A stretch of DNA of 64,000 nt from the NCBI GenBank assembly GCA_040219255.1, contig JAVJSW010000049.1:160001-224000 (forward strand). Reading direction: 5' to 3'. The position numbers were made by a program, and so were the translations under genes. The first letter of the stretch is position 1, and each line of letters begins with the position of its first letter. The notes beneath the pieces were generated by a model. The model worked only from the letters and a program-made list of their open reading frames with translations. It made no database searches and was not told where the DNA came from. Below are positions 1 to 52,760 of this stretch, one piece after another. The stretch comes from Sumerlaeia bacterium. Lineage in GTDB: Bacteria > Sumerlaeota > Sumerlaeia > SLMS01 > JAHLLQ01.

Positions 1-801
1 GAACAGTTTCTTGTCGATGACGATGCCCATGCCCAGGCCGAAGCCGATGTTGATGACGGCGAAGGTGTTGAGGTCGCGGCCGGTGCCGAACCACATCGAG
101 CCGAGGGCGCTCATGCGGGCGTCGTTGTCGAGGAAGACGGGAACGCCGAAGCGTTCTTCCAGGCTGTGGCGGATCTGGCGTTCGTCCGTGCCGCCACCCG
201 CGTGCGTCGCGGCGGCGCCGTTCGATGCGGGCCCGGCGGGGCGTTCCGGTTCGCCGACGAGACCGGGCAGAGCCACGCCGATGCCGGCCAGCGGCGGAAG
301 CATGGAAGCCTGGGAGACGTAGAGGTTTTCGCCGAGGCGCACCAGCCGCTTGGCCAGTTCCTCCGCGGATTCGGACTCCGGCGTGTCTTCTTCGATGCGG
401 GCGAGGATCGTGCCCCCCAGGCTGACCGCCACACCGGTGGTTAGGCGCTTGCCGGCGTCGATGCCGACGACGCAGGCGGCCTGGGGATTGAGCGTGACGA
501 GTTTGGAATGGCGGCCCAGCCGGCTGGTCTTGCTTTTCTCTTCGAAGACGAGGTGTTCATCGAGGCTCTCCTGCACGAAGGAGGAGACGCTGGGCAGGTT
601 GAAGCCGGAGATATCGACGATATCGCGGCGGGAGATCGGCCCCGACTGGCGGATGATGTTCAGAACCTGGTGCTTGCGAAGACGGCGCTTCTCCAGGCTG
701 CGGGCGGCGGGGCTGGAGGAGTCGGGCAGAACGACCAGATCGGGGCGGGTCTTCAAGGGGGAAGTCAAGGAGGGCGAAACCTCGTGTGAATGGTTGCGCA
801 A
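1..801 (-). CDS. ROK-family (NagC/XylR-like) transcriptional regulator; 3' end runs off the window, start uncertain (TTG at 801, 768 or 756)
   Basis: Manual minus-strand translation: HTH region (VLNIIRQSGPISRRDIVDISGFNLPSVSSFV), then ROK motifs VVGIDAG, GIGVALPGLV, VPVFLDNDARMSALG, INIGFGLGMGIVID. Directly downstream of the sugar ABC permeases. Confidence 0.88.
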   Translation of the reverse strand, partial: MRNHSHEVSPSLTSPLKTRPDLVVLPDSSSPAARSLEKRRLRKHQVLNIIRQSGPISRRDIVDISGFNLPSVSSFVQESLDEHLVFEEKSKTSRLGRHSKLVTLNPQAACVVGIDAGKRLTTGVAVSLGGTILARIEEDTPESESAEELAKRLVRLGENLYVSQASMLPPLAGIGVALPGLVGEPERPAGPASNGAAATHAGGGTDERQIRHSLEERFGVPVFLDNDARMSALGSMWFGTGRDLNTFAVINIGFGLGMGIVIDKKLF

Positions 802-804
802 TCG

Positions 805-1683
805 TCAACTCTTCAGACCGGTCGTCGCAATACCAGAGACGAAGGCCTTTTGAGCGCAGATGTACAGGACCAGGATTGGCAAAATCGAGACCATGGCTGC
901 GGCCATCATTTTCGGCCAGTCGCTGCTGAATTGGCCTTGCAGGAAAGAGAGCCCAGCCGTCAACGGCATTTTTTCTAAAGTGTCTATATAAATGAGCGGA
1001 TTGAGCAGATCGTTCCAGCTCGCCATGAAGGTGAAGACCCCCAGCGTGGCGAGCGCGGGCCGCGACAGAGGCAGGTAGATCCGCCACAGGATCGTGAAAG
1101 GATTGCAGCCGTCCACCAGCGCCGCCTCGTAGAGATCTTTTGGTATGGAGATATAAAATTGCCGCAGAAAAAAGACGCCGAAGGCCCCGCCAAAAAACGT
1201 CGGCAGCCAAAGCGGATAGTGAGTGTCCTTCCAGCCGAGCCACTGGAACAGGATGAACACCGGGATGATCGTGAGTTGATAGGGCACCATCAGCGTCACC
1301 AGCGTCGCGCCGAAAATCACGGGCCGCCCCGGAAAGTTCAACCGCGCCATGGCGAATGCCGACATCGAGCAGGACAGCAGCATTCCCAAAACCGCCAACC
1401 CCGTGATCTTGAAGCTGTTGAGCGTGAAGCGCAGCACGGGCAGGTAGTCCTTCGTGAAAAGGTCCGTGTAGTTGCTCCAGTTCCATGCTTCCGGAATCAG
1501 CGTGGGCGGATAGGCGAAGGCCGACGAGAAGGTCTTGAGGGACGTCGACACCATCCAGAGGAACGGAAACACCATCGCCAGGGCGATGACTGTGAGCACA
1601 AAGTACCAGCCCGCGGCGGTGGCAATTTTCGAACCGCGGGGCCAGTTGTCGACCCAGCGGGGGGCCTGCGGAGATTTAGTCAT
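805..1683 (-). CDS. carbohydrate ABC transporter permease (MalG-type)
   Basis: PFLWMVSTSLK, EAA loop IPKDLYEAALVDGC, SWNDLLNPLIY. Confidence 0.95.
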   Translation of the reverse strand: MTKSPQAPRWVDNWPRGSKIATAAGWYFVLTVIALAMVFPFLWMVSTSLKTFSSAFAYPPTLIPEAWNWSNYTDLFTKDYLPVLRFTLNSFKITGLAVLGMLLSCSMSAFAMARLNFPGRPVIFGATLVTLMVPYQLTIIPVFILFQWLGWKDTHYPLWLPTFFGGAFGVFFLRQFYISIPKDLYEAALVDGCNPFTILWRIYLPLSRPALATLGVFTFMASWNDLLNPLIYIDTLEKMPLTAGLSFLQGQFSSDWPKMMAAAMVSILPILVLYICAQKAFVSGIATTGLKS

Positions 1684-46158: not shown

Positions 46159-47040
46159 ATGGCCATTCTTGTCACAGAAAACACCCGCCTGATGATCCAG
46201 GGCATTACCGGCCGCGAAGGCCAGTTCCACGGCCGGCAAATGCTCGACTACGGCACCAAGGTCGTCGCCGGCGTCACCCCCGGCAAAGGCGGCCAGACCG
46301 CCCTCGGCACCGTCCCCGTCTTCAACACCGTCCAGGCCGCCGTCGACGAAACCGGCGCCAACACCACCATCATCTACGTCCCCCCGGCCTTCGCCGCCGA
46401 CGCCGCCCTCGAAGCCATCGAAGCCAACCTCGACCTCGTCATCATCATCACCGAAGGCATCCCCACGCTCCAGATGATGACCGTCTATCATGAAGCCAAG
46501 CGCCGCGGCGTCGTCGTCATCGGCCCCAACTGCCCCGGCGTCATCAGCCCCGGCATCGCCAAAATCGGCATCATGCCCGGCCACATCCACAAACCCGGCC
46601 GCGTCGGCCTCATCAGCCGCTCCGGCACCCTGACCTACGAAGTCGTCGACGCCCTCACCAAAGCCGGCGTCGGCCAGAGCACCTGCGTCGGCATTGGCGG
46701 CGACCCCATCATCGGCTCCACCTTCGTGGATATCCTCGCCCACTTTGAAAAAGACCCCGACACCGACGCCGTCGTCGTCATCGGCGAAATCGGCGGCACC
46801 GACGAACAAGACGCCGCCCGCTTTGCCAAAGAGCACATGACCAAGCCCTGCGTCGGCTTCATCGCCGGCCGCACCGCCCCCCCCGGCAAACGCATGGGCC
46901 ACGCCGGCGCCATCATCAGCGGCGGCGAAGGCACCGCCCAGGAAAAACTCCAGGTCATGCGCGACAACGGCGTCGCCACCTGCGACCTCCCCAGCGAAGT
47001 CCCCGCCCGCATCCAGGAAGTCCTCGCAGCGCGGGTGTAA
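46159..47040 (+). CDS. sucD: succinyl-CoA ligase alpha subunit
   Basis: [29 protein letters not shown]. Confidence 0.97.
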
Positions 47041-47096
47041 GGCTCCGCCGCCCGTTCGTAGTCCCGCCGCCCGGCGGAAGAAAGTCACTCCATCGC

Positions 47097-47143
47097 AAGC
47101 CGCCGCATTCTCCTTCAAGGCAGAGTGCGGCGGCTTTCTTTTC
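47097..47143 (+). terminator. rho-independent terminator after sucD
   Basis: AAGCCGCCGCATTCT...AGAGTGCGGCGGCTT stem followed by a T-rich tract. Confidence 0.8.
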
Positions 47144-47217
47144 GTTCTTTCATCTTTACCTCTTGAGCAGATAGGCCGCATCGTTCGTCCACCAGTTCAA
47201 GCCAAGAGGACGATCCG

Positions 47218-48600
47218 ATGTCCGACGAGAAGTTGCTCAGTAAGACGCTCACTTTCGGTGTGGGCTTCCCCTACGCTTTCAATGTCAGGAAGGGCACCAT
47301 TGAACCCCTTCAGGATGATGTGCGGAAAGCGGTCTATGAACACATGCGGCGCGCATCCTGTGCGGTTGCCCAAGCCTGCAACATCGAAACCGCCAAACGG
47401 TACGTTCAGGTAACCCTCGGGATCGACAAGTCCCAGGAGGAAATTAAACCATCCAACCCCGCCCTGCGCAAGCGCGTTGCCGATTGTGACTGGATTGCCG
47501 GGGGAACTCTTTCCCAGTCCTATAAGCTGACGGACCCACACTTCGCGGGTGACCATGGTAAGGAGCTTATCACAGTCGGTTCGCGCCAACTCCCAACCCA
47601 TCGCACCGACGGCTCCCATCCAATCCCTTTTCGCCATGATGGCACACGCCTTTTCCTGCATGAGAAGGCCTACTGGCTTTGCGTTCAATTGCTTGAAGTC
47701 AAGTACGCAAAAACCAACAATCTGCCCAATTGGCTGGCCTTTCCCATCATCGCCAAGAAACGGGACAAGACACTCAATGGTCAACTCCAGCGGCTGACCA
47801 CCGGGGAATGGATGCTACGCAATTCGCGCCTCGCCCGGAACATGCGCCGCAAAGGCCCCCGGTGGAATGGCCAGGTCGTCCTGCAGTACAAACCCGAACC
47901 GTACAAGACCCTCAATCCCGGCGTCGTGATGGGGATCGACCTGGGGGTCAATGCGCCGGCCGCCATCCATATTCGCCCCCAGGGCTCGGAAGCCGGTGAG
48001 CATTGGGCCATGATCGTCGGCAACGGTCGCCAACTTCTTGCCTCGCGCAATGTCATCCGGTCGGAAATCCGAACTATCGTCCGCGGCCTCCGCGCCAAAG
48101 ACAGCGGCCTCATCGGGGGCGCCCGCGCTCAGGCCCAGGAACGACTCCGTGACCTTCGCAAAAAGGAAAAAGCCATCATCAAGACCGGCTCTCAGCGAAT
48201 CGCCAAACAAATCGCCGAGGCCGCCCGCCGCAATGGCGCTGGGACGTGGCAACTGGAAGACCTGAAGCTCAAGGGTGGGCTCAAGGAAGACAGTTGGCTG
48301 GCCCGCAATTGGGCGCCGGGGACCCTGATCGACGCCATTCGATGGAACGCGCAGAAACTTGGCGTGAGCCTCGTGCTCGTCAATCCGGCTTACACGTCCC
48401 AGCGCTGCGCCAAGTGTGGCCACATTTCCCGGGCGAATCGCCCCAAGGCCAGCAAAGGGCAGGAGCACTTTCAATGTGTCGCCTGTGGCCGCAAAGAAAA
48501 CGCCGACAAGAACGCCGCCAGAAATCTGTCCATCACCGGCATTCAGGACTTGATCGCTGCCACGGTTCCGCCTAAAGAAGAGTCCAATGGCTCTGAATAG
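47218..48600 (+). CDS. cas12f: miniature type V CRISPR effector, Cas12f1-like RuvC nuclease (TnpB superfamily), 460 aa
   Basis: RuvC-I VMGIDLG, RuvC-II GTWQLEDL, zinc finger YTSQRCAKC...FQCVAC, RuvC-III NADKNAARNL. Also matches recalled AsCas12f1 segments (GNLSQ, ILSGEY, GTIQMEDL, QNW). Adjacent to a CRISPR array. Confidence 0.88.
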   Translation: MSDEKLLSKTLTFGVGFPYAFNVRKGTIEPLQDDVRKAVYEHMRRASCAVAQACNIETAKRYVQVTLGIDKSQEEIKPSNPALRKRVADCDWIAGGTLSQSYKLTDPHFAGDHGKELITVGSRQLPTHRTDGSHPIPFRHDGTRLFLHEKAYWLCVQLLEVKYAKTNNLPNWLAFPIIAKKRDKTLNGQLQRLTTGEWMLRNSRLARNMRRKGPRWNGQVVLQYKPEPYKTLNPGVVMGIDLGVNAPAAIHIRPQGSEAGEHWAMIVGNGRQLLASRNVIRSEIRTIVRGLRAKDSGLIGGARAQAQERLRDLRKKEKAIIKTGSQRIAKQIAEAARRNGAGTWQLEDLKLKGGLKEDSWLARNWAPGTLIDAIRWNAQKLGVSLVLVNPAYTSQRCAKCGHISRANRPKASKGQEHFQCVACGRKENADKNAARNLSITGIQDLIAATVPPKEESNGSE

Positions 48601-48775
48601 AGCAGTTCGCCTGGGTGAATTGGAATCTCGCGATTCCTCTTCGGCTGGACGTGTGGCCTTCTCGCAGGCCAATCGGACCGGACCACTCCGGAGAGTGAAT
48701 CCGGATCCGGAAGTCGCTTCTCGCAAGCGATGGCTGTCCCGATATCGGGACATGATACCTCGATTTCTTCCGCCA
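48601..48775 (+). ncRNA. candidate tracrRNA; boundaries approximate
   Basis: Five hairpins between cas12f and the leader. CCTCT (48636-48640) is complementary to the repeat 3' end AGAGG. CCTCGATTTCTTCC (48758-48771) is complementary to the repeat's last 15 nt with G:U pairs, one bulge and one mismatch. Confidence 0.6.
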
Positions 48776-48938
48776 ACCCCAAGCCAACAGGCTAAACCGG
48801 GGAGGACGGCGAAAACTGAAATCGTTGAGCTTAGGCGAAATTCTGAGCCCTGTGCATGGCGTCGGAAGGAGGGTCAAGGCGAGGTCGGCGATGCCGCTAA
48901 TCTTCGCCCCTGAGTTTGTTGACTTTGAGACATGGGCG
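48771..48938 (+). promoter_or_regulatory. CRISPR leader
   Basis: Directly upstream of the first perfect repeat; contains CGCCAACCCCAAGC...GGGGAGGACGGCG, resembling class 1 leader motifs. Confidence 0.6.
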
Positions 48939-49766
48939 GTCGCAACTCGCGCTTAGGCAGGGATCAGAGGGGAAAGCTCCAGCACCGCCGGACCGCCCCC
49001 GTCGCCCGTCGCAACTCGCGCTTAGGCAGGGATCAGAGGGAGTACACGCTGCTCGATCCGCCGCTGAACATCAAGTCGCAACTCGCGCTTAGGCAGGGAT
49101 CAGAGGTGTAAGCAACTACTCAGAGACGCAGAGGAGAAAGAGTCGCAACTCGCGCTTAGGCAGGGATCAGAGGAACGTTTTGCCACACGGTTCGCAGTTC
49201 GGCATCCGTCGCAACTCGCGCTTAGGCAGGGATCAGAGGTTTTCTTCGACCCTTGGCATCATGAGCGAGAAATGTCGCAACTCGCGCTTAGGCAGGGATC
49301 AGAGGAACGGCTGGGTCAAATAACGTCAAGCGGTACGCGTCGCAACTCGCGCTTAGGCAGGGATCAGAGGCTCTTCTCCCGGAAGGAAATCACCGAATTG
49401 CGAGGTCGCAACTCGCGCTTAGGCAGGGATCAGAGGAACGTCGACCCGGATGGGCACGAGAAGCACGTCCGTCGCAACTCGCGCTTAGGCAGGGATCAGA
49501 GGGAGATGCCAACGGGCGAGACCACCCCAAGACGATAGAGTCGCAACTCGCGCTTAGGCAGGGATCAGAGGACCATCACGGCGGTGGCGGCATAATGGCT
49601 GAGCGTCGCAACTCGCGCTTAGGCAGGGATCAGAGGGGTGTCCAGGTAGGTGTTGTGCAGCCCGGCCCCCGTCGCAACTCGCGCTTAGGCAGGGATCAGA
49701 GGACGGCTCGCCGGTTCGTACGCGCAACCAGCGCCAGGTCGCAACTTGCGCCCAGGCAGGCATCAG
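48939..49766 (+). CRISPR. CRISPR array: 12 identical 32-nt repeats GTCGCAACTCGCGCTTAGGCAGGGATCAGAGG, 1 degenerate truncated repeat, 12 unique spacers of 33-37 nt
   Basis: Repeats start at 48939, 49008, 49075, 49142, 49208, 49274, 49339, 49405, 49471, 49540, 49605 and 49671. The degenerate copy at 49738 marks the trailer end and supports + orientation. Confidence 0.98.
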
Positions 49767-49806
49767 CCCCCCCCACACCGTTAAAACCCACAAGTTTAAC
49801 CGCCCT
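49767..49806 (+). repeat. left copy of a 40-bp perfect inverted repeat flanking acnA
   Basis: CCCCCCCCACACCGTTAAAACCCACAAGTTTAACCGCCCT; its reverse complement is at 52909-52948. Confidence 0.92.
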
Positions 49807-50069
49807 TTGTCACGCGACAGGCCCGGCCGTTTCTCGTAGCTTGCTCTCCAGTTCGCTGCGAAGGAGAGGGCCCCATGCTCAGGAACCCGTTCACCCGATC
49901 CAGGTGCCGCCGTGGGGCGGCGTGCGCGCGGGCGCCAACACCCGCTTGCGTCCGCCGCACGGTTCTCGCTAAAGCCTTGTGTCATCGGCGGCGCCCGTTC
50001 GCGGGCGAGCAGGCCCTGTGCGCCGCGCGGTGAACTCAACACGTGTACCCTAAGATCAAGGATCGTCCC

Positions 50070-52760
<2,691 letters not shown>

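What the first reader, a model, noticed from the sequence alone, without database searches (positions are those of the whole stretch)
48601..48775. Candidate tracrRNA with two separate anti-repeat segments
Seen: hairpins at 48622-48637, 48654-48671, 48684-48697 and 48714-48730, and an 18-bp perfect palindrome TGTCCCGATATCGGGACA (48735-48752). CCTCT (48636-48640) can pair with the repeat end AGAGG. CCTCGATTTCTTCC (48758-48771) can pair with GGCAGGGATCAGAGG in 13 pairs, including 2 G:U. Known: Cas12f1 tracrRNAs lie near the gene and array and pair with crRNA in two segments, one long-range. Inference: this is the tracrRNA and gives a starting sgRNA design.
Basis: partly seen in the sequence, partly recalled or inferred. 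Interest (0 to 1): 0.72.

Follow-up and report, generated by a model that had tools for sequence, protein, structure and literature searches.

The report
Helper RNA gene of a mini-CRISPR nuclease

Summary
Window 48601-48775 lies between a 460-aa Cas12f-like gene (47218-48600, +) and a 13-repeat CRISPR array (48939-49769, +). Four of them are helices P1-P4 of an RNA fold conserved in six loci. 23 of 42 model pairs show compensatory changes, 91% of cells pair against 27-47% in slid controls, and G-U pairs favour the + strand. The layout matches As/Os-type Cas12f guide RNAs: short stem 1, long stem 2, stems 3 and 4, then an anti-repeat. In 6 of 8 loci the 22 nt after P4 pair best with that locus's own repeat.

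In the window this long anti-repeat is weak (-15.2 kcal/mol, matched by 13-14% of shuffles). The conserved register starts at 48753.

It sits in a non-conserved flank and recurs as an exact complement in only 1 of 4 relatives. By homology, the short anti-repeat is more likely UCUC in the P1 loop (48660-663), but this is unproven.

DNA from about 48771 to 48938 is a type I-C-like CRISPR leader, not tracrRNA. No RNA data exist. Verdict: a new member of a known kind.

The parts
47218..48600 (+). cas12f-like effector gene, 460 aa. It has a TnpB/Cas12f TNB zinc ribbon, and the RuvC acidic residues D241, E347 and D430 are conserved.
   Evidence: Pfam PF07282, E 1.5e-17. NCBIfam guided_TnpB 106 bits against a cut-off of 100; the Cas12f2 model scores 95 bits against a cut-off of 450, not reached. 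Best solved relatives are 8j3r/8j12 at E about 1e-29 and 7wju/8dzj at E about 3e-27, all homodimeric Cas12f entries. Invariant columns in 59 homologues. That these columns are the catalytic triad and the CCCC zinc site is my recall of the family.
48580..48593 (+). Hairpin P(-1), overlapping the last codons of cas12f. A counterpart with a GAAU or GUAU loop stands at the same place in five relatives.
   Evidence: Sequence. MFE folds of the relatives' flanks. Consensus fold with 4 of 5 pairs compensatory among the four relatives given; the window's row was misaligned by MAFFT there and was read by eye. G033.
48611..48648 (+). Hairpin P0. It is conserved in position but not in sequence. It may be a 5' extension of the tracrRNA or the end of the cas12f mRNA.
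   Evidence: A stable hairpin stands between P(-1) and P1 in all five loci folded: z = -1.36 in the window, and -5.16, -4.76, -2.11 and -3.53 in the relatives. No alignable sequence.
48654..48671 (+). P1, the equivalent of stem 1: 6 pairs with a pyrimidine-rich loop. UCUC at 48660-48663 is the candidate short anti-repeat, forming a pseudoknot with the repeat's last GAGG.
   Evidence: 100% of cells paired and 2 of 6 pairs compensatory. Loop-to-repeat-end covariation is seen in distant Cas12f loci. In this clade there are only 3 Watson-Crick pairs plus 1 G-U, which equals background.
48675..48708 (+). P2, the equivalent of the long stem 2: 13 pairs with one bulged base near its foot.
   Evidence: 9 of 13 pairs compensatory in six loci. 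Window coordinates.
48713..48731 (+).
   Evidence: 6 of 7 pairs compensatory and 97.6% of cells paired.
48735..48752 (+).
   Evidence: 4 of 7 pairs compensatory and 97.6% of cells paired.
48753..48771 (+). Long anti-repeat. In the conserved register, 48753-48760 pairs with repeat nt 21-28 (7 of 8).
   Evidence: Register table and swap matrix. Weak in the window: -15.2 kcal/mol, own repeat ranks 4th of 8.
48771..48938 (+). CRISPR leader with an inverted-repeat element P5 (48771-48811) and a third box near 48883-48892. This is a DNA-level motif shared with type I-C arrays and is probably not part of the tracrRNA.
   Evidence: The P5 part of model R1 hits the leader of the genome's own type I-C array (contig C10) and the leaders of distant Cas12f arrays. 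P5 has 1 G-U against 4 A-C cells.
48939..49769 (+). CRISPR array: 12 identical 32-nt repeats plus a degenerate last one (49738-49769), with spacers of 33-37 nt.

Best explanation
Window ~48654-48771 (+), possibly starting as early as 48580, encodes the tracrRNA of a type V-F (Cas12f) system.

Shown:
- Four helices P1-P4 are conserved by compensatory change.
- The order is the one described for As/Os/Rh Cas12f guide RNAs: short stem 1, long stem 2, stems 3 and 4.
- The helices are followed directly by a stretch that pairs with the locus's own repeat.

Inferred mechanism: the RNA is transcribed rightwards, either on its own or as the 3' end of the cas12f message. Its 3' stretch pairs with the 3' half of each repeat in the pre-crRNA. 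In the window the conserved start is UGAU 48753-756 with repeat nt 25-28. The last four repeat bases, GAGG, form a short second helix, most likely with UCUC in the P1 loop as a pseudoknot. A Cas12f dimer then binds the two-RNA scaffold and uses the spacer to cut DNA.

The sequence from 48771 to the array is a leader of type I-C design. New spacers are therefore probably inserted by the Cas1-Cas2-Cas4 of the genome's I-C system on another contig.
For: Locus layout. The order is effector gene, 338-nt gap, then array. The same layout is found in L083, L003 and L004 and in G033.

Fold.
- MAFFT alignment of 5 loci: 42 pairs, 19 compensatory, 90% of cells paired against 27-47% when slid, 0 of 500 shuffles as high.
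- Model-fitted alignment of 6 loci: 23 of 42 compensatory, 90.9% paired.

Strand. In P1-P4 there are 9 G-U cells against 2 A-C cells.

Anti-repeat.
- The own repeat ranks first in 6 of 8 loci, at -20.6 to -26.3 kcal/mol, with 0-2.4% of shuffles as good.
- In the six close loci the first 4 nt after P4 pair with the repeat (nt 25-28; 28-31 of L164's single unit).

Architecture in print. AsCas12f1 has a 171-nt scaffold with stems 1-4 plus two repeat:anti-repeat helices, and R:AR-2 stacks on stem 1 (bioRxiv 10.1101/2023.07.03.547593, passages). Os/Rh have four stems with a long stem 2 (PMC13186708, section 8). A 5-7 bp short helix forms a pseudoknot and is essential in AsCas12f1 (PMC11246509, passages).

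Short helix by homology. In 8 distant Cas12f loci the stem-1 loop pairs with the repeat end through 4-5 Watson-Crick pairs and changes with it.

Leader..
Against: No transcript data. No sequencing run could be listed, so the ends, the strand and even expression are unverified.

The window's own long anti-repeat is the second weakest of the eight. It reaches -15.2 kcal/mol, 13-14% of shuffles do as well, and its own repeat ranks 4th of 8. Several other 22-nt windows near the locus pair better, for example 48841-48862 at -25.6.

The proposed P1-loop helix has only 3 Watson-Crick pairs plus 1 G-U in this clade. That is no more than loops give with unrelated repeat ends: mean 2.98 over 114 comparisons with differing repeat ends.

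Only six close loci were found, and they are related, so the shuffle statistics overstate significance.

Two relatives look decayed. G033 keeps the RNA and the array but only the last ~95 codons of cas12f. L164 has a single repeat-like unit.

I could not compare the sequence with published As/Os/Cn tracrRNA sequences, because none was available from a tool.
Confidence: 0.8

Rival explanations
1. The tracrRNA has a 5' short anti-repeat CCUCU (48636-640) that pairs with AGAGG, and a 3' anti-repeat at 48758-771.
For: CCTCT gives 5 Watson-Crick pairs, more than the P1 loop offers. The closest relative G033 has CCTC in the same flank, and L083 has CCTCT, which needs 2 G-U pairs against its GGGG tail. 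RNAduplex prefers the 48758-771 register for the window.
Against: Both segments need the same GAGG. L003 and L004 have no complement in this flank, so the count is 2 of 5 loci with an exact 4-nt complement. The flank is not alignable. G033 lacks the CCUC-GAU register. In As-type guides no RNA lies 5' of stem 1 in the core.
Confidence: 0.2
2. The fold is a structured 3' untranslated region or a terminator-stabiliser of the cas12f mRNA, or a decayed omega-RNA relic. It has no guide-scaffold role, and the crRNA works alone or with an RNA encoded elsewhere.
For: The structure starts inside the last codons of the gene. The window's anti-repeat is not better than chance.
Against: The anti-repeat tracks each locus's repeat in 6 of 8 loci. 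The four-stem order equals that of known Cas12f scaffolds. No better conserved anti-repeat was found on either strand near the gene or the array. No U-tract terminator was found on the + strand.
Confidence: 0.1
3. The conserved hairpins are DNA-level or minus-strand features: part of the leader, or an antisense RNA.
For: The minus strand folds with a better z-score, -4.34. The neighbouring P5 element does behave as a DNA motif.
Against: In P1-P4 there are 9 G-U cells against 2 A-C cells, which favours the + strand. The P1-P4 part is absent from the I-C leaders, which carry only P5. Pairing with the crRNA needs the + strand.
Confidence: 0.04

Closest known systems
tracrRNA:crRNA scaffold of type V-F1 Cas12f of the As/Os/Rh/Cn group (PDB 8j12, 7wju, 8j3r, 9nzq)
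   Same: It is encoded beside the effector gene and the array. It has a short stem 1, a long stem 2 with a bulge near its foot, stems 3 and 4, and then a long anti-repeat. The total scaffold size is similar: about 120-nt core plus a 32-nt repeat, against 171 nt in AsCas12f1. The repeat's last bases are left free for a short second helix. Distant loci of this group held here (L089 from an Oscillibacter MAG, L016, L085, L007 and others) share the stem-1 hairpin followed by an AAUCG motif.
   Different: The protein is only distantly related: E about 1e-29 to solved Cas12f, aligned from residue 95 on. There are two extra positionally conserved hairpins 5' of stem 1, one of them inside the ORF end. 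In the window the long anti-repeat is reduced to about 7-13 imperfect pairs. The stem-1 loop offers only 3-4 pairs, where 5-7 are described.
Un1Cas12f1 (Cas14a1) tracrRNA
   Same: It carries extra stems 5' of the conserved core, and the two-helix pairing with the repeat. That its short helix uses a hairpin loop is my recall.
   Different: The protein group is different. I made no sequence comparison.
TnpB omega RNA (reRNA)
   Same: A structured guide scaffold that begins within or at the 3' end of the nuclease ORF. This is established knowledge of IS200/IS605 TnpB and was not tested here.
   Different: Here the guide is supplied separately by a CRISPR array, and no transposon end is seen.
Type I-C CRISPR leader motifs
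   Same: An inverted-repeat element lies about 125-170 bp upstream of the first repeat, with further boxes nearer the array. It is shared with the genome's own I-C array and with I-C arrays of G029 and G042. The literature says that I-C leaders hold several subtype-specific motifs 100-200 bp upstream (bioRxiv 10.1101/2023.05.26.542337, passages).
   Different: Here the leader sits in front of a Cas12f array that has no adaptation genes next to it. I did not compare it with the published I-C motif logos.

Membership tests
Type V-F (Cas12f) tracrRNA | Encoded next to a cas12f gene and its CRISPR array | tested here: met
   The gene is at 47218-48600, the RNA region at 48580/48654-48771 and the array at 48939-49769.
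Type V-F (Cas12f) tracrRNA | Conserved multi-stem scaffold: stem 1, long stem 2, stems 3 and 4 | tested here: met
   In P1-P4, 21 of 33 pairs are compensatory in six loci. The layout is as described.
Type V-F (Cas12f) tracrRNA | Long anti-repeat complementary to the repeat, following the last stem | tested here: inconclusive
   Met in 6 of 8 loci, where the own repeat ranks first. In the window it is only -15.2 kcal/mol and 13-14% of shuffles are as good. Positional homology still holds: the first 4 nt pair with repeat nt 25-28.
Type V-F (Cas12f) tracrRNA | Short anti-repeat (5-7 bp) forming a pseudoknot with the repeat's 3' end | tested here: inconclusive
It is clear in 8 distant loci, through the stem-1 loop. 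In this clade there are only 3 Watson-Crick pairs plus 1 G-U, which equals background.
Type V-F (Cas12f) tracrRNA | Expressed as a small + strand RNA bound by the effector and required for cleavage | not testable with these tools
   No run holding this sequence could be listed.
Cas12f effector | TnpB-like RuvC with a TNB zinc ribbon, an intact catalytic triad, small size, similarity to solved Cas12f, and an adjacent array | tested here: met
   PF07282. guided_TnpB scores above its cut-off. 8j3r E 1.8e-29. D241, E347, D430 and four Cys are invariant in 59 homologues. The assignment of these residues is recalled.
Cas12f2 (NCBIfam NF049972) | Score at or above the curated cut-off | tested here: not met
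   95.5 bits against a cut-off of 450. I do not file it as Cas12f2.
Rfam families | Match to any curated RNA family | tested here: not met
   In 46500-50500 only one chance-level hit, inside the array (Ocean-VII, E 0.2).
Type I-C-like CRISPR leader | Leader motifs shared with arrays that stand next to cas3-cas5-cas8c-cas7-cas4-cas1-cas2 | tested here: met
   P5 and box 3 are shared with the leader on own-genome contig C10, which follows cas2. The same element lies about 130 nt before I-C arrays in 2 of 5 further loci examined. Two others are cut by contig ends, and one has no array in the stretch fetched.

The most novel reading that the evidence does not exclude
The Cas12f module is a stripped-down satellite of the genome's type I-C system. 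Its array carries an I-C leader, the same 32-nt repeat length and the same spacer sizes. Spacers, and so the usable PAM, would then be chosen by the I-C Cas4-Cas1-Cas2 acting in trans. Its tracrRNA would be made from the 3' end of the cas12f transcript, as a TnpB omega RNA is, and in this sub-lineage the long anti-repeat has shrunk to about 8 pairs. This would be a step between a one-piece omega RNA and a fully split tracrRNA/crRNA.
Probability: 0.3. Interest if true: 0.55.

Novelty: new member of a known kind. Interest (0 to 1): 0.38.

Why it matters
It gives a comparative definition of the guide-RNA scaffold for an uncharacterised clade of 445-515-aa Cas12f-like nucleases. In the databases these are labelled transposases. 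The scaffold definition covers the stems, the start of the anti-repeat, and what belongs to the leader. That is the information needed to test the clade as a miniature genome editor, and it corrects the starting point of an sgRNA design.

The shared leader between a Cas12f array and a type I-C array in one genome is a testable case of one adaptation machine feeding two effector types.

None of this changes the known picture of how Cas12f systems work.

Tried and rejected
RNA evidence. No sequencing run holding the locus was listed, RNA or DNA.

More relatives.
- The metagenome and genome scans were swamped by generic TnpB patterns. They gave only 3 close loci among 160 kept.
- The viral scan found none. 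Plasmids held only hits of 27% identity or less.
- The protein search found 2 of 75 genomes in the window's phylum and 1 of 401 in the phylum of G075.
- The RNA model added G033.
- The contigs of the other ~55 homologues could not be fetched.

Anti-repeat scan by duplex energy.
- With 40-nt windows it was uninformative in this G+C-rich DNA.
- With 22-nt windows the best hit, 48841-48862 in the leader, pairs 11 of 12 with repeat nt 20-31. It is no outlier: next best are -24.3, -22.7 and -22.6. I estimate such a match is expected by chance about twice over all alignments, so I dropped it.

Other pairings of the conserved P1 loop, with the repeat's 5' end or with leader box 1. I read these by eye only. 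They fail in the window and in L164, so I rejected them.

An '8-nt insertion' in the window's anti-repeat. I inferred this from distant relatives and withdrew it after G033 showed only a 2-nt length difference.

Protospacers. No match of the array in phages, plasmids or the own genome, so no PAM could be inferred.

Promoter and terminator scan. No sigma-70-like promoter and no + strand terminator in 48400-50100. The consensus may not apply to this phylum.

Earlier notes of this scan. Nothing on this genome's locus or protein.

Literature. No paper holds both 'Cas12f' and 'Sumerlaeota'. I did not search for this clade under other names.

Full report
**What is there**

The flagged 175 nt lie in the 338-nt gap between two features.
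- Upstream is a 460-aa ORF (47218-48600, +).
- Downstream is a CRISPR array of 12 identical 32-nt repeats plus one degenerate terminal repeat (48939-49769), with spacers of 33-37 nt.

The ORF is a Cas12f-like nuclease.
- It matches Pfam PF07282, E 1.5e-17.
- It passes NCBIfam guided_TnpB (106 bits, cut-off 100). It falls far short of the Cas12f2 model (95 bits, cut-off 450).
- Its best solved relatives are homodimeric Cas12f entries: 8j3r/8j12 at E about 1e-29, 7wju/8dzj at about 3e-27 and 9nzq at 9e-26.
- In an alignment of 59 homologues, D241, E347, D430 and four cysteines are invariant. I read these, from recall of the family, as the RuvC triad and the zinc ribbon, so the enzyme looks active.

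The flanking genes are housekeeping genes: succinyl-CoA ligase alpha at 46159-47040 and aconitase at 50043-52760. There is no cas1, cas2 or cas4 nearby.

**Check of the observation**

Every hairpin and the palindrome are at the stated coordinates and appear in the + strand minimum-free-energy fold.

Folding energy alone is weak evidence. The + strand has z = -2.0 and the opposite strand z = -4.34.

The two proposed pairings are arithmetically right but not above chance.
- CCTCT occurs 102 times in the window, against 117 +/- 12 expected.
- The 13-pair duplex of 48758-771 with the repeat (-15.2 kcal/mol) is equalled by 13-14% of shuffles.
- It ranks 529th of 1848 windows scanned.
- Both pairings use the repeat's terminal GAGG, so they exclude each other.

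**Comparative evidence**

The protein has 65 relatives at E <= 1e-20. The full-length ones are 40-64% identical and are mostly unnamed or called transposase.

I could obtain DNA for five relatives.
- L083 is from a Pirellulales MAG (52% identity).
- L003 and L004 are metagenome contigs (44% and 42%).
- L164 is G072. Its protein is identical to P0005, which a source names Candidatus Sumerlaeota.
- G033 was found with the RNA model.

L083, L003, L004 and G033 have the same layout: gene, a gap of 320-360 nt, then an array of 32-nt repeats.

Fold statistics on the MAFFT alignment of five loci:
- RNAalifold predicts five helices.
- 42 pairs, 19 with compensatory changes.
- 90% of cells paired, against 27-47% when the 3' partners are slid.
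- No shuffle of 500 reaches the observed values.

With G033 added, on a model-fitted alignment that leans towards the structure, 23 of 42 pairs are compensatory.

In window coordinates the helices are:
- P1 48654-671
- P2 48675-708, with apex 48684-697
- P3 48713-731
- P4 48735-752
- P5 48771-811

In P1-P4 there are 9 G-U cells against 2 A-C cells, which points to a + strand RNA.

**P5 is not part of the RNA**

- The covariance model's P5 segment alone hits distant Cas12f loci.
- It also hits contig C10 of the same genome.
- There it lies between cas2 and the array of a complete type I-C system: cas3, cas5, cas8c, cas7, cas4, cas1, cas2.
- The window's leader and the C10 leader share genome-specific variants of box 1 and box 3.
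- The same element stands about 130 nt before I-C arrays in G029 and G042. That is 2 of 5 further loci examined; two others are cut by contig ends, and one has no array in the stretch fetched.
- P5 shows 1 G-U against 4 A-C cells.

I read 48771-48938 as a type I-C-like leader. This fits the statement that I-C leaders carry several motifs 100-200 bp upstream (passages of bioRxiv 10.1101/2023.05.26.542337).

**Long anti-repeat**

In eight loci (six close, two distant) I took the 22 nt after P4 and folded them against all eight repeats.
- The own repeat ranks first in six loci, at -20.6 to -26.3 kcal/mol, with 0-2.4% of shuffles as good.
- The window (-15.2) and G033 (-13.5) rank fourth.

In the six close loci the first four bases after P4 pair with the repeat (nt 25-28; 28-31 of L164's single repeat-like unit), with changes on both sides.
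- In the window, TGAT 48753-756 pairs with ATCA, and 7 of the first 8 positions pair.
- In L083, L003 and L004, 13-14 of 16 positions pair.

I favour the conserved register at about 60:40.

**Short anti-repeat**

Published work describes a second helix of 5-7 bp between the repeat's 3' end and the tracrRNA. It forms a pseudoknot, stacks on stem 1, and is essential in AsCas12f1.

In eight distant Cas12f loci held here, the hairpin equivalent to P1 has a loop that pairs with the repeat end by 4-5 Watson-Crick pairs and changes with it. That hairpin is followed by an AAUCG motif, as in the window.

In the window's clade the same loop positions give only UCUC with GAGG: 3 Watson-Crick pairs plus 1 G-U. 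There is one compensatory change, in L083. This is no better than background.

- An exact complement of the repeat's last four bases occurs in this flank in the window and G033 only, 2 of 5 loci.
- L083 has CCTCT against a GGGG tail.

My odds for the partner of GAGG:
- P1 loop, about 50%
- CCTCT, about 20%
- CCUC within 48758-761, about 20%
- none of these, about 10%

**5' extension**

Two further hairpins are conserved in position.
- P(-1) at 48580-593 lies inside the last codons of cas12f. In relatives it has GAAU-type loops.

They may belong to the tracrRNA, which would then overlap the ORF end as a TnpB omega RNA does. Alternatively they may end the cas12f message. No data decide between these.

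**Verdict**

This is a genuine Cas12f tracrRNA gene. It is a new member of a known kind, in an uncharacterised effector clade.

No RNA data could be obtained. Rfam has no matching family. No protospacers were found.

Noticed in passing
window 48771-48938; own genome contig C10 (L002 860-1040, L166): The Cas12f array's leader shares an inverted-repeat element and a third box, including genome-specific variants, with the leader of the genome's complete type I-C system. Both arrays have 32-nt repeats and spacers of about 33-37 nt. The Cas12f locus has no adaptation genes. This suggests spacer acquisition in trans.
   Followed up: partly
L169/L177 (G033:C32), tracr at L169 1501-1669 (-), array at L169 149-1385: A genome of the same family keeps an intact tracrRNA fold (103 bits), the leader and an array of at least 19 repeats whose repeat ends like the window's. 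Only the last ~95 codons of cas12f remain (68% identity, 1 stop inside the match).
   Followed up: partly
L164 (G072:C143) 662-693 (-): The relative with a full cas12f and tracrRNA has the leader followed by a single repeat-like unit, which its anti-repeat matches. No array lies in the remaining 660 nt of the contig. It is either a decayed array or a fixed single guide.
   Followed up: no
L089, L016, L085, L090 compared with L007 and the window: In some distant Cas12f loci the order is gene, leader element, tracrRNA, array. The tracrRNA there abuts the first repeat. In L007 and in the window's clade the order is gene, tracrRNA, leader, array. The leader element and the tracrRNA gene have swapped places during evolution.
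   Followed up: partly
window 48829-48852: The leader holds an 8-nt copy of repeat nt 13-20. It is followed by a 12-nt stretch complementary (11 of 12) to repeat nt 20-31, and together they can form a small hairpin. I judged this to be at chance level.
   Followed up: partly
L176 (G043:C38) 1501-1667 (-); L175 (G047:C144) 1501-1582 (+): These are weak partial matches to the RNA model: the P1 hairpin alone in L176, and P4 plus the leader element in L175. Neither genome has a detectable cas12f relative at E <= 1e-5. They may be relics.
   Followed up: no
window 48580-48593 and relatives: A small hairpin with a conserved CC-GAAU-GG core sits at the end of cas12f. It lies inside the ORF in the window, L083 and L164, and after the stop codon in L003, L004 and G033. 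Its function is unknown. It could be a processing site, or the 5' end of the tracrRNA.
   Followed up: partly
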